Of a DNA stretch of 64,000 nucleotides, positions 43,501 through 46,500 are shown piece after piece (the first letter of the stretch is position 1; every line of letters starts with the position of its first letter). Location: assembly GCF_003991155.1 (NCBI RefSeq), contig NZ_CP031293.1. One strand, 5' to 3'. The position numbers are program-made. This DNA is from Escherichia coli (GTDB lineage Bacteria > Pseudomonadota > Gammaproteobacteria > Enterobacterales > Enterobacteriaceae).

Positions 43501-46500
43501 GGCTGAGATCAGGCACAGTGCCATAGCAATTAATGCGTAGGCTGCCAGGACTTTGTGTGGTGCGAAGCGACTGATGAGCCAGGTACCGGTGAAACGACCA
43601 ATAAAGAAGCACACCATGGTTCCGGTTAAATAGTTAGCGGCAAAGCCTGCTGTCATACCTGGAATTTCTTCTACAGCGTAGCGAATTAAATAGCTCCAGC
43701 AGGCCGTTTGTGCGCCAACGTAGCAGAATTGCGCTAATACTGCCCAGCGCCAGTGGCGAATACGCGCCAGGCGACAAAGCGATGCGGAGAACGATCCTTG
43801 TTTGGCGTCACTGTGATTATCACTCTGCAATGCCGGGAATTTCGTCAGCATGATCAGCAGGGCGACCAGTAACACGATAGCCACGATGATCATATAAGGT
43901 GTCTGTACCGATAATACCAGGCTGTGTTTATACGCACTCAATTGCTCTGGAGACATTTTATCGAGAACGTCTTGCGATTGATGTGGCACGTTAGACAAAA
44001 TAAGACTTTGCCCAAAGACAACCGCGATAATTGCGCCAAATGAGTTAAATGTTTGCGCAAGATTTAAGCGGAAGTGACCACTGCTTTCCGGCCCTAATAC
44101 CGTAACAAAAGGGTTTGCGGCAGTTTCCAGACAACCTAATCCGGCTGCAATAATAAATAGGCCAACTAAAAACAAGGTGTAGTTCATTATTTCTGCGGCG
44201 GGCCAGAATAATGCAGCGCCGAAGGCATATAAAAACAATCCGGTAATAATCCCTGCTTTATAACTGAGTTTTTTCATCAATATCCCGGCAGGGATTGGGA
44301 TAATGAAATAACCAAAGTAAAAGGCCGATTGGATCAGGCCAGCCTGGAAATTTGTCAGCGTAAAAGCCTGCTGGAATTGAGGCAATAAAATGTCGTTAAG
44401 GTTATTGGCTACCGCCCAAAGAAAAAACAGTGAGCACAGCAGTGCGAATGGAATAATGTAACTTCTGCTTTGCCCTGCATCTTTATCTACCGCACGGTAA
44501 CTCTGCGTTTGTATTGATGTGTTTCCCATAGCATCCTCTTAGGTTCAGAAGCTTAAGCACGTAATCGGTTATGTTTTCAAAAGTGCAAAACCAGCGAGTT
44601 CGGGCTTCATATCAGTGAATATTTGCCTGTCTGAAATGAACTCATGGATTCATTTTCAAATAAAAAACGCTCTGTAATATGACGGCGGTCACACTTATTA
44701 GCCGGAAGGTGACTTTATGTGACTACCATCACTTTAATAATCGAAATTTCATGCCCGTTTCAGAAAATAAATCATAAAAAACACAAACCAGATGACCGTA
44801 TTAATTGTTTGTGCCGAAAACGGGCATTCCTGGCAGGGAGGAGTAGAAAAATGACCGTTTTGATAAATATTTTTAAGAGCGGTCATTTTTAATGGGGTTA
44901 TAAAAAGAGAAATTGCAGTTATTTACTGTGATTAGTTGAACCAGGTCACAAAATATAAGCTTGTGAATTTCTTTCTGGTTAATCAGGAAGAAGATGGTGG
45001 GTAATTAAACGGCTAATTCAATAGTGTGAAAGGAACAACATTATTGCCCTGTTTTGAATCAGAGAGAGGTAGCTAATGGAACGAAATAAACTTGCTCGTC
45101 AGATTATTGACACTTGCCTGGAAATGACTCGCCTGGGGCTGAACCAGGGGACAGCGGGTAACGTCAGTGTACGTTATCAGGATGGGATGCTGATTACGCC
45201 TACAGGTATTCCATATGAAAAACTGACGGAGTCGCATATTGTCTTTATTGATGGCAACGGCAAACATGAGGAAGGAAAGCTCCCCTCAAGCGAGTGGCGT
45301 TTCCATATGGCGGCCTATCAAAGCAGACCGGATGCCAACGCGGTTGTTCACAATCATGCCGTTCATTGTACGGCAGTTTCCATTCTTAACCGCCCGATCC
45401 CCGCGATTCACTACATGATTGCGGCGGCTGGCGGTAATTCTATTCCTTGCGCGCCTTATGCGACCTTTGGAACACGCGAACTTTCTGAACATGTTGCGCT
45501 GGCTCTCAAAAATCGTAAGGCAACTTTGTTACAACATCATGGGCTTATCGCTTGTGAGGCGAATCTGGAGAAAGCGTTATGGCTGGCGCATGAAGTTGAA
45601 GTGCTGGCACAACTTTACCTGACGACCCTGGCGATTACGGACCCGGTGCCAGTGCTGAGCGATGAAGAGATTGCCGTAGTGCTGGAGAAATTCAAAACCT
45701 ACGGGTTACGGATTGAAGAGTAATTTCGTAAAGCAACAAGGAGAAGGATGATGGCTAACAGAATGATTCTGAACGAAACGGCATGGTTTGGTCGGGGTGC
45801 TGTTGGGGCTTTAACCGATGAGGTGAAACGCCGTGGTTATCAGAAGGCGCTGATCGTCACCGATAAAACGCTGGTGCAATGCGGCGTGGTGGCGAAAGTG
45901 ACCGATAAGATGGATGCGGCAGGACTGGCATGGGCGATTTACGACGGCGTAGTGCCCAACCCAACAATTACTGTCGTCAAAGAAGGGCTCGGTGTATTCC
46001 AGAATAGCGGCGCGGATTACCTGATCGCTATTGGTGGTGGTTCTCCACAGGATACTTGTAAAGCGATTGGCATTATCAGCAACAACCCGGAGTTTGCCGA
46101 TGTGCGTAGCCTGGAAGGGCTTTCCCCGACCAATAAACCTAGTGTACCGATTCTGGCAATCCCCACCACAGCAGGCACTGCGGCAGAAGTGACCATTAAC
46201 TACGTGATCACTGACGAAGAAAAACGGCGCAAGTTTGTTTGCGTTGATCCGCATGATATCCCGCAGGTGGCGTTTATTGACGCTGACATGATGGATGGTA
46301 TGCCTCCAGCGCTGAAAGCTGCGACGGGTGTCGATGCGCTCACTCATGCTATTGAGGGGTATATTACCCGTGGCGCGTGGGCGCTAACCGATGCACTGCA
46401 CATTAAAGCGATTGAAATCATTGCTGGGGCGCTGCGAGGATCGGTTGCTGGTGATAAGGATGCCGGAGAAGAAATGGCGCTCGGGCAGTATGTTGCGGGT

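What the first reader, a model, noticed from the sequence alone, without database searches (positions are those of the whole stretch)
44530..45075. Fucose divergent control region with a consensus-quality CRP site
The 546-bp AT-rich spacer between fucP and fucA contains TGTGActaccaTCACt (44718-44733) and other TGTGA/GTCACA half-sites (e.g. near 44687), consistent with CRP and FucR control of both operons.
Basis: partly seen in the sequence, partly recalled or inferred. Interest (0 to 1): 0.15.

Follow-up and report, generated by a model that had tools for sequence, protein, structure and literature searches.

The report
Known CRP site of fucose promoter
The flagged sequence is a real, deeply conserved and already published binding site for the global sugar-starvation regulator CRP in the E. 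coli fucose gene switch, so the finding is correct but ordinary.

Summary
The window is E. coli and 44530-45075 is the 546-bp fucP/fucA divergent spacer (37% G+C). TGTGActaccaTCACt sits exactly at 44718-44733, and the 'GTCACA near 44687' is the right half of a second site, TaTGAcggcggTCACA at 44678-44693. These are the published Crp operators OCrp1 and OCrp0 of the fucPIKUR promoter (Zhang et al. 2024, 2025, citing Podolny 1999).

As a bare sequence match the site is not significant at 64-kb scale: 10 of 30 shuffles score as well. What makes it real:
- Four CRP-like sites fall in 0.85% of the window (P about 8e-5).
- TGTGA-N6-TCAC[T/C] is kept in 47 of 47 Enterobacterales spacers, with 28 different 6-bp centres.
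- Its distance to OCrp0 is a rigid 39-40 bp.
- Published genetics support it.

One nuance: published truncations show OCrp0 and OCrp1 are dispensable for fucAO. That operon uses its own weaker sites, OCrp2 (44932-44953) and OCrp3 (45022-45043).

Strain-level differences from K-12: the IS5 target CTAG is CCGG here, and OFucR2 carries one SNP.

Verdict: already known, low interest.

The parts
38665..39396 (-). fucR, the DeoR-family activator of the fuc regulon and last gene of fucPIKUR
   Evidence: Annotated in the 100%-identical record NZ_CP029747.1 (locus 6266-6997, which maps to the window by adding 32399). A minus-strand ORF ends at 38665.
43213..44529 (-). fucP, the L-fucose:H+ symporter and first gene of fucPIKUR
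   Evidence: ORF; annotation.
44585..44595 (-). Published SrsR (YgfI) box gCtGgTTTTGC, in the fucP leader
   Evidence: The box sequence comes from the gSELEX table in PMC9181523. It is located by eye (plus strand GCAAAACCAGC). Zhang 2024 found SrsR irrelevant to fucAO.
44652..44657 (-). Inferred -10 hexamer of PfucPIKUR. It reads GAAAAT on the fucP strand, with an inferred start near 44644-44646.
   Evidence: This is an inference. The hexamer lies in a near-invariant block, 44650-44664. In an ungapped alignment anchored on OCrp0, the same columns read TATAAA in Yersinia and AAAAAT in Photorhabdus. The measured TSS is in papers I could not read.
44675..44696 (.). OCrp0, the promoter-proximal CRP site of fucPIKUR: taaTaTGAcggcggTCACActt (core 44678-44693).
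   Evidence: The sequence is given in PMC11894529 and is identical here. It has one core mismatch. It is conserved 39-40 bp from OCrp1 in 44 of 47 spacers.
44702..44705 (.). Position of the K-12 IS5 target CTAG (-374 to -371 from the fucA ATG). It reads CCGG in this strain.
   Evidence: Alignment to MG1655; target coordinates from PMC11894529.
44715..44736 (.). OCrp1, the finding itself: ttaTGTGActaccaTCACTtta (core 44718-44733). It is the distal CRP site of fucPIKUR, inferred at about -80.5/-81.5.
   Evidence: It is identified as OCrp1 because the IS5 target lies 'between OCrp0 and OCrp1'. It is present in 47 of 47 species with 28 different 6-bp centres.
44751..44757 (-). FucR-like box a (fucP strand: tttctgaaaCGGGCATgaaa). 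It is untested and may be one of the 'putative OR0/OR1' sites.
   Evidence: A minus-strand box at this offset from OCrp1 is found in 41 of 47 spacers.
44792..44798 (-). FucR-like box b (fucP strand: caattaataCGGTCATctgg)
   Evidence: The offset of +74 to +76 from OCrp1 is found in 44 of 47 spacers.
44814..44828 (+). OFucR2: ccgaaaaCGGgCAtt. K-12 has CGGtCAtt; the SNP is at 44824.
   Evidence: Site sequence and mutagenesis (about 30% loss of induced activity) are in PMC11011485. The SNP is shown. The offset is conserved in 44 of 47 spacers.
44847..44868 (-). Left arm of a 44-bp imperfect palindrome, carrying FucR-like box d (ATGACCG at 44851-44857)
   Evidence: I1: 22-nt arms, 82% complementary, no gap between them.
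44873..44887 (+). OFucR3: ttaagagCGGtCAtt, the right arm of the palindrome. It is the key FucR site for fucAO.
   Evidence: PMC11011485: mutating it lowers induced activity more than 50-fold. The site is identical here.
44932..44953 (.). OCrp2: ttagtTGAaccaggTCACAaaa, the essential CRP site of PfucAO. Its centre is 70.5 bp upstream of the published TSS.
   Evidence: PMC11011485: 14-fold (glycerol) and 350-fold (fucose) loss when mutated. It has two core mismatches. It is conserved as nnTGA-N6-TCACA in 46 of 47 spacers.
45003..45013 (+). PfucAO -10 element (aATtAa, 45003-45008) and the 5'RACE start site, C at 45013 (-63 from the fucA ATG)
   Evidence: PMC11011485, mapped onto.
45022..45043 (.). 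OCrp3: tagTGTGAaaggaacaACAtta, in the fucA 5'UTR (about +20.5). It makes a minor contribution.
   Evidence: PMC11011485: about 30% loss when mutated. It is kept only within Escherichia.
45076..45723 (+). fucA, L-fuculose-phosphate aldolase and first gene of fucAO

Best explanation
The 16-mer at 44718-44733 is OCrp1, the promoter-distal member of a tandem pair of cAMP-CRP operators that activate the fucPIKUR promoter. That promoter fires leftward on the minus strand.

What is shown by sequence:
- OCrp0 lies 40 bp closer to fucP.
- OCrp0 sits 28.5 bp upstream of a conserved -10-like hexamer. This is class II geometry, about -40.5/-41.5.
- OCrp1 therefore lies at about -80.5/-81.5.

What is inferred from established CRP mechanism: the proximal CRP dimer contacts the RNA polymerase alpha-NTD and alpha-CTD. 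The distal dimer at OCrp1 contacts the second alpha-CTD and bends the DNA. This brings fuculose-1-P-bound FucR, sitting on CGGKCAT boxes that begin 18 bp beyond OCrp1, into a single activating complex (a 'class III' promoter).

The site does not serve fucAO. That operon has its own CRP sites, OCrp2 and OCrp3, and its own FucR sites, OFucR2 and OFucR3, further right in the same spacer.

In K-12, IS5 inserts between OCrp0 and OCrp1. This silences fucPIKUR by displacing OCrp1 and everything upstream of it. It also recruits OCrp0 as the class I activator of an IS5 fusion promoter that drives fucAO.
For: Identity of the site:
- The window is E. coli, and fucP and fucA flank the spacer.
- The spacer differs from K-12 at only 10 of 546 positions, and none falls in any CRP site.
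- The published OCrp0 sequence maps to 44675-44696. The IS5 target at -374 to -371 (44702-44705) is stated to lie between OCrp0 and OCrp1, so OCrp1 is the flagged site.

Function, from the literature:
[quoted passage not shown] - Genomic SELEX with cAMP-CRP recovers fucA and fucP among known targets.

My own tests:
- CRP-like cores cluster in the spacer: 4 of 27 in 0.85% of the window, P = 8e-5.
- OCrp1 is present in 47 of 47 Enterobacterales fucP-fucA spacers, from Escherichia to Yersinia and Photorhabdus. TGTGA and TCAC are invariant while the 6-bp centre takes 28 different forms.
- The OCrp0-OCrp1 spacing is 39-40 bp in 44 of 47 spacers.
- The spacing from OCrp0 to the -10-like block is fixed, as shown by an ungapped alignment.
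- FucR-like boxes sit at conserved offsets from OCrp1 and are enriched in the spacer: 5 of 29, P = 5e-6.
- No consensus sigma-70 promoter is found in the spacer, as expected for activator-dependent promoters.
Against: - The primary papers with footprints and the fucP start site were not readable here (Podolny 1999, Chen 1989, Zhang 2010). The -81.5 position and class III geometry are therefore my inference, not a citation.
- No experiment seen here mutates OCrp1 alone. IS5 insertion also displaces all the FucR boxes.
- Forty bp is 3.8 helical turns, slightly off the same-face optimum.
- The 16th base is never the consensus A in any of the 47 species. This suggests an additional or different constraint on that half-site.
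- As a pure sequence match the site is not significant at 64-kb scale.
Confidence: 0.9

Rival explanations
1. One shared, bidirectional CRP site. The strong site at 44718-44733 would activate both divergent operons.
For: It is the best CRP match in the spacer. Divergent promoters often share CRP sites, as noted in PMC3105977. The OCrp1-to-OCrp2 distance is length-constrained (205-218 bp in most of 47 species), while the flanking leaders vary from about 100 to 320 bp.
Against: A PfucAO fragment running from -270 to -1 (44806-45075) lacks OCrp0 and OCrp1 yet keeps full basal and fucose-induced activity. Mutating OCrp2 alone gives a 350-fold loss. The site lies about 290 bp upstream of the fucAO start at 45013.
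Confidence: 0.07
2. OCrp1 acts mainly as an architectural or cooperative element. In this view CRP bound there does not touch RNA polymerase. Instead it bends the DNA and is stabilised by, or stabilises, FucR on the adjacent box a. This would parallel the FucR-helps-Crp model proposed for PfucAO.
For: A FucR-like box sits at a fixed +33/34 bp offset from OCrp1 in 41 of 47 species. Zhang 2024 proposes that FucR's main role at PfucAO is to facilitate Crp binding. The imperfect distal half-site (TCACT, never TCACA) is conserved, which is compatible with a site tuned to need a helper.
Against: There are no binding or cooperativity data for this promoter in anything I could read. A position of -81.5 is also compatible with direct alpha-CTD contact. 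The two mechanisms are not mutually exclusive.
Confidence: 0.3
3. Chance occurrence of a CRP-like palindrome in AT-rich intergenic DNA, with no function.
For: 10 of 30 shuffled 64-kb windows contain an equally good match, and 15 of 100 shuffles contain a TGTGAN6TCACW match.
Against: The expected count within this spacer is about 0.002. The half-sites are invariant in 47 of 47 species while the centre and the inter-site DNA vary freely. Published genetics also argue against chance.
Confidence: 0.01

Closest known systems
OCrp1 and OCrp0 of the E. coli K-12 fucPIKUR promoter (Podolny, Lin & Hochschild 1999; Zhang et al. 2024, 2025)
   Same: The sequence is identical base for base over both 22-mers, and the 40-bp spacing and flanking genes are the same. 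This is the same element in another E. coli strain.
   Different: Only the DNA between the two sites differs. K-12 has CTAG, the IS5 target, where this strain has CCGG at 44702-44705.
lac P1 CRP site (TGTGAgttagcTCACT)
   Same: It has the same two half-sites, TGTGA and TCACT, giving 9 of 10 core matches (my own knowledge of the lac sequence).
   Different: The lac site is a single class I site at -61.5. This one is the distal member of a tandem pair and works together with an operon-specific activator.
Class III CRP-dependent promoters with tandem CRP sites and a second activator (for example araBAD or malE/malK)
   Same: There are two or more CRP sites upstream of a weak promoter, and activation depends on a sugar-specific regulator. 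This is the description of class III given in PMC11894529.
   Different: The co-activator is a DeoR-family protein, FucR, with five CGGKCAT boxes shared across a divergent spacer. The geometry of -41.5 plus -81.5 is inferred here, not measured.
OCrp2 and OCrp3 of PfucAO (Zhang et al. 2024)
   Same: They lie in the same spacer, bind the same regulator, and also cooperate with FucR.
   Different: Their core matches are weaker (two mismatches each). They serve the opposite promoter. OCrp3 lies in the 5'UTR and is conserved only in Escherichia.

Membership tests
cAMP-CRP operator | A 16-bp core resembling TGTGA-N6-TCACA with 6-bp half-site spacing | tested here: met
   TGTGActaccaTCACT matches 9 of 10 core positions. 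It ties for the top weighted score in 64 kb.
cAMP-CRP operator | The match is more than chance would give | tested here: inconclusive
   On sequence alone it is not: 10 of 30 shuffles reach the same score. In context it is: about 0.002 expected in the spacer, and 4 sites cluster there with P = 8e-5.
cAMP-CRP operator | Evolutionary footprint: half-sites conserved while the central 6 bp is free | tested here: met
   47 of 47 spacers keep TGTGA...TCAC[T/C], with 28 distinct centres. Conservation drops between the sites.
cAMP-CRP operator | Promoter-compatible position (class I, II or III distances from a TSS) | tested here: inconclusive
   OCrp0 lies 28.5 bp upstream of a conserved -10-like hexamer, which implies about -40.5/-41.5 for OCrp0 and -80.5/-81.5 for OCrp1.
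cAMP-CRP operator | Physical binding of cAMP-CRP | not testable with these tools
   Literature only. Genomic SELEX lists fucA and fucP. OCrp0 and OCrp1 are attributed to Podolny 1999.
cAMP-CRP operator | crp-dependent and site-dependent expression of the adjacent operon | not testable with these tools
   Literature only. IS5 displacement of OCrp1 silences fucPIK. The site is dispensable for PfucAO.
FucR (DeoR-family) operator | Motif with the conserved CGG and CA positions (consensus approximately AAAACGG[T/G]CAT[T], from Baumgart 2021 as quoted in PMC11011485) | tested here: met
   Five CGGKCAT boxes lie in the spacer against 0.25 expected. The aligned boxes are shown.
FucR (DeoR-family) operator | Functional validation by mutagenesis | not testable with these tools
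   OFucR2 and OFucR3 were validated in K-12. Boxes a, b and d are only 'putative OR0/OR1' in the literature and are untested.

The most novel reading that the evidence does not exclude
The five FucR boxes may not be four promoter-specific operators (OR0/OR1 for fucP, OR2/OR3 for fucA). They may instead be two large palindromic operators, 44792-44827 and 44847-44890, each with arms 29 bp apart start to start and the two operators 59 bp apart, plus one solitary box next to OCrp1. All sit at conserved distances from OCrp1 and OCrp2 across Enterobacterales. On this reading the 270-bp stretch from OCrp0 to OCrp2 assembles one FucR-oligomer/CRP nucleoprotein complex that couples the two divergent promoters. 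A related strain-level point: this B2-type allele (CCGG instead of CTAG) would lack the IS5 hot-spot that lets K-12 evolve growth on propanediol.
Probability: 0.2. Interest if true: 0.3.

Novelty: already known. Interest (0 to 1): 0.08.

Why it matters
It matters little as a discovery. The fuc divergent control region is a textbook-era system that was re-dissected in 2024-2025, and the flagged site is one of its named operators.

The check is useful in four ways:
- It shows that the first-stage reader can recognise a true CRP operator from raw sequence.
- It shows that the sequence match alone would not have been statistically convincing. Location, clustering and phylogenetic footprinting carry the weight.
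- It corrects the site-to-promoter assignment: fucPIKUR, not both operons.
- It records small, possibly useful by-products. These are the deep conservation of the whole operator layout across Enterobacterales, the palindromic pairing of FucR boxes, and natural polymorphism at the IS5 insertion target.

Tried and rejected
- **Sigma-70 and terminator scan of 44400-45200.** It found no promoter-like or terminator-like site. This is uninformative for activator-dependent promoters.
- **Rfam scan at E <= 1 over 44300-45300.** Nothing was found, so there is no known RNA element in the spacer.
- **ORFs of at least 20 aa in the spacer.** Only short ORFs turned up, none with any support, so I did not pursue them.
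- **Primary mapping papers.** I tried to read Podolny 1999 (PMC94201), Zhang 2010 (PMC2838058), Chen 1989 (PMC210477), Zheng 2004 (PMC528793) and Tan 2001 (PMC311042). None is held. The supplements of PMC11894529 do not mention the fucP TSS. A text search for fucP with 41.5 and CRP gave nothing new.
- **Published PfucAO -35 element.** I could not place 'TTGtgA at -96 to -91'. Those coordinates (44980-44985) read TAATCA in both K-12 and this window. The only TTGTGA is at 44961-44966 (-115 to -110), which is 36 bp from the stated -10. [quoted passage not shown]
- **Chance explanation.** I considered it and rejected it on conservation.
- **Single bidirectional CRP site.** I considered it and rejected it on the published truncation data.
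Full report
**1. What is in the sequence**

TGTGA occupies 44718-44722, ctacca 44723-44728 and TCACT 44729-44733. 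GTCACA lies at 44688-44693.

The flanking ORFs are a 438-aa minus-strand ORF ending with its ATG at 44529 and a 215-aa plus-strand ORF starting at 45076. An 801-bp query across the spacer is 100% identical to E. coli 2016C-3878, and 5041 of 5426 complete E. coli genomes hold a match. In the listed records that cover the whole query, the two genes are annotated fucP and fucA.

The neighbourhood is the canonical fucR-fucU-fucK-fucI-fucP <> fucA-fucO locus. The spacer 44530-45075 is 546 bp and 36.6% G+C, against 50.4% for the window.

**2. Is it more than chance?**

On sequence alone, only weakly:
- TGTGAN6TCACW occurs once in the window. The expectation is 0.24, and 15 of 100 shuffles have at least one match.
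- With a simple weighted score against the 22-bp consensus aaaTGTGAtctagaTCACAttt, the site ties for first place among 63,979 positions. However, 10 of 30 shuffled windows reach the same score.

In context, clearly yes:
- The expected number of such matches inside this particular spacer is about 0.002.
- Core matches with at most 2 mismatches total 27 in the window, exactly the chance level of 27.1. Four of them fall in the spacer, where 0.23 are expected (P = 8e-5).

**3. Identification with published operators**

Two recent papers from the Saier laboratory dissect this spacer in K-12. They name four Crp operators (OCrp0 to OCrp3) and FucR operators OR0 to OR3 (PMC11011485; PMC11894529). The window differs from MG1655 at 10 of 546 spacer positions and has no indels, so the published coordinates transfer directly.

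Sites mapped onto the window:

| Site | Sequence | Window coordinates |
|---|---|---|
| OCrp0 | taaTaTGAcggcggTCACActt | 44675-44696 |
| IS5 target (-374 to -371) | CTAG in K-12 | 44702-44705 |
| OFucR2 | ccgaaaaCGGtCAtt | 44814-44828 |
| OFucR3 | ttaagagCGGtCAtt | 44873-44887 |
| OCrp2 | ttagtTGAaccaggTCACAaaa | 44932-44953 |
| PfucAO -10 | aATtAa | 45003-45008 |
| PfucAO TSS (5'RACE) | C at -63 | 45013 |
| OCrp3 | tagTGTGAaaggaacaACAtta | 45022-45043 |

**4. What the site does, according to the literature**

[quoted passage not shown] - Both sites are dispensable for fucAO. The fragment from -270 to -1 (44806-45075) retains full basal and fucose-induced activity. Mutating OCrp2 costs 14-fold on glycerol and 350-fold on fucose. 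Mutating OCrp3 costs about 30%.
- Genomic SELEX with cAMP-CRP recovers fucA and fucP.

The two sites it singled out belong to fucPIKUR only, and fucAO has its own weaker sites.

**5. Independent evidence from related genomes**

A scan of one genome per species with FucA returned 80 loci. Forty-six of them carry a divergent fucP upstream, spanning Escherichia, Salmonella, Citrobacter, Klebsiella, Raoultella, Kluyvera, Hafnia, Rahnella, Yersinia, Photorhabdus and others.

- **OCrp1.** It is present as TGTGA-N6-TCAC[T/C] in all 47 sequences including the window. The 6-bp centre takes 28 different forms. The 16th base is T in 42 and C in 5, and is never the consensus A.
- **OCrp0.** It lies 39 or 40 bp away in 44 of 47 sequences.
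- **OCrp2.** It is kept as nnTGA-N6-TCACA in 46 of 47, and lies 205-218 bp from OCrp1 in most.
- **OCrp3.** It is kept only within Escherichia.
- **Flanking leaders.** These vary widely. The fucP ATG to OCrp1 distance runs from about 100 to 320 bp.

A MAFFT alignment of 28 Enterobacteriaceae spacers gives discrete footprints:
- the fucP leader and RBS;
- 44637-44664;
- both halves of OCrp0;
- both halves of OCrp1 plus TTTAAT;
- the FucR box cores;
- the TCACA of OCrp2;
- the fucA RBS.

Even within E. coli the DNA between OCrp0 and OCrp1 is polymorphic. The window's 69-bp allele is exact in 294 genomes, including Nissle 1917. The K-12 allele is exact in 1140 of 5014.

**6. Geometry and mechanism**

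I could not read the papers that map the fucP start, so this part is inference.

In an ungapped alignment anchored on OCrp0, a near-invariant block TTTATTTGAAAATGA follows at a fixed distance. The hexamer GAAAAT (44657-44652 on the fucP strand) occupies the same columns as TATAAA in Yersinia and AAAAAT in Photorhabdus. The centre of OCrp0 is 28.5 bp upstream of that hexamer. That is class II geometry, with OCrp0 at about -40.5/-41.5 and a start near 44644-44646. OCrp1 then falls at about -80.5/-81.5.

This fits two published observations:
- The NAR 2025 figure legend places the fucP TSS within the 100 bp left of the IS5 junction, 44606-44705.
- The same paper describes class III promoters as having two or more CRP sites plus a second regulator.

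The most likely mechanism is synergistic activation by tandem CRP dimers together with FucR bound just upstream. Whether OCrp1-bound CRP contacts alpha-CTD directly, or works mainly by bending and by cooperativity with FucR, is open.

**7. FucR sites**

CGGKCAT occurs 29 times in the window, and 5 of those are in the spacer against 0.25 expected (P = 5e-6).

| Box | Coordinates | Strand | Published name |
|---|---|---|---|
| a | 44751-57 | - | none |
| b | 44792-98 | - | none |
| c | 44821-27 | + | OFucR2 |
| d | 44851-57 | - | none |
| e | 44880-86 | + | OFucR3 |

All five carry an A-rich 5' flank. Boxes d and e form a 44-bp imperfect palindrome, 44847-44890, that is 82% complementary. Boxes b and c have the same 29-bp start-to-start spacing, 59 bp to the left. 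The offsets of boxes a, b and c from OCrp1 are conserved in 41 to 44 of 47 species.

Only OFucR2 (about 30% effect) and OFucR3 (more than 50-fold effect) have been validated. OR0 and OR1 are called 'putative'.

**8. Differences from K-12**

- All four CRP sites and OFucR3 are identical.
- OFucR2 reads CGGgCAT instead of CGGtCAT. This variant is allowed by the published consensus.
- The IS5 target CTAG is CCGG here. This may remove the classical route to propanediol-positive mutants. It was not tested.

**9. Verdict**

The element is an already named operator of a well-studied regulon. Novelty is 'already known' and interest is low. The only mildly new material is the breadth of conservation, the palindromic pairing of FucR boxes, and the polymorphism at the IS5 target.

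Noticed in passing
window 44702-44705: The K-12 IS5 insertion target CTAG is the site of every propanediol-positive IS5 mutant and lies between OCrp0 and OCrp1. It reads CCGG in this strain. The window's 69-bp allele is exact in 294 E. coli genomes, including Nissle 1917, and the K-12 allele in 1140 of 5014. The inter-operator DNA is polymorphic while the CRP half-sites are fixed.
   Followed up: partly
window 44824: There is a single SNP inside the validated FucR operator OFucR2: CGGgCAT here against CGGtCAT in K-12. The published degenerate consensus allows G at this position.
   Followed up: partly
window 44847-44890 and 44792-44827: A 44-bp imperfect palindrome (82% complementary) has OFucR3 as its right arm and an unannotated, oppositely oriented FucR-like box as its left arm. 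A second box pair with the same 29-bp spacing lies 59 bp to the left. This suggests that FucR operators are palindromic and shared between the two promoters.
   Followed up: partly
window 44636-44664: This block is near-invariant across 28 Enterobacteriaceae and surrounds the inferred fucP -10 element and start site. It includes the inverted repeat ATGAA-N8-TTCAT (fucP strand, 44653-44636). No regulator is assigned to it in anything I read.
   Followed up: no
window 44729-44738: The distal half-site of OCrp1 is TCACT (or TCACC) in all 47 species and never the consensus TCACA. The flanking TTTAAT is also conserved. This hints at a constraint beyond CRP affinity.
   Followed up: partly
window 45022-45043: OCrp3, the published 5'UTR CRP site of fucAO with about a 30% effect, is conserved only within Escherichia. 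It is not recognisable in Salmonella, Klebsiella, Citrobacter and the other genera examined.
   Followed up: partly
window 44961-44966 versus 44980-44985: Zhang et al. 2024 give the PfucAO -35 element as 'TTGtgA at -96 to -91'. Those coordinates read TAATCA in both K-12 and this window. The only TTGTGA lies at -115 to -110, 36 bp from the stated -10 element. The published -35 assignment is internally inconsistent.
   Followed up: partly
window 53691-53712, 39505-39526 and 3055-3076: Other high-scoring CRP-like 22-mers occur in the window: TATTGTGATACAACCCACAATT inside syd, GCCTGTGATAACGATCGCAAAG inside fucU, and AGGTGTGACCTGGGTCACGAAT. Their number matches the chance expectation.
   Followed up: no
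loci L030 and L010: Contigs labelled Martelella alba (an alphaproteobacterium) and Serratia marcescens carry an Enterobacteriaceae-type fucP-fucA spacer. FucA is 89-92% identical to E. coli, and the OCrp0/OCrp1/OCrp2 layout is the same. Contamination or mislabelling of the assemblies is likely.
   Followed up: no
34 of the 80 loci in L002-L081 that gave no FucP hit (for example L031-L036, L042-L044, L052-L063): Many Citrobacter, Atlantibacter, Buttiauxella and Enterobacter genomes hold a FucA homologue (82-88% identity) with no divergent fucP within 2.5 kb upstream. This is a second, differently organised aldolase locus.
   Followed up: no
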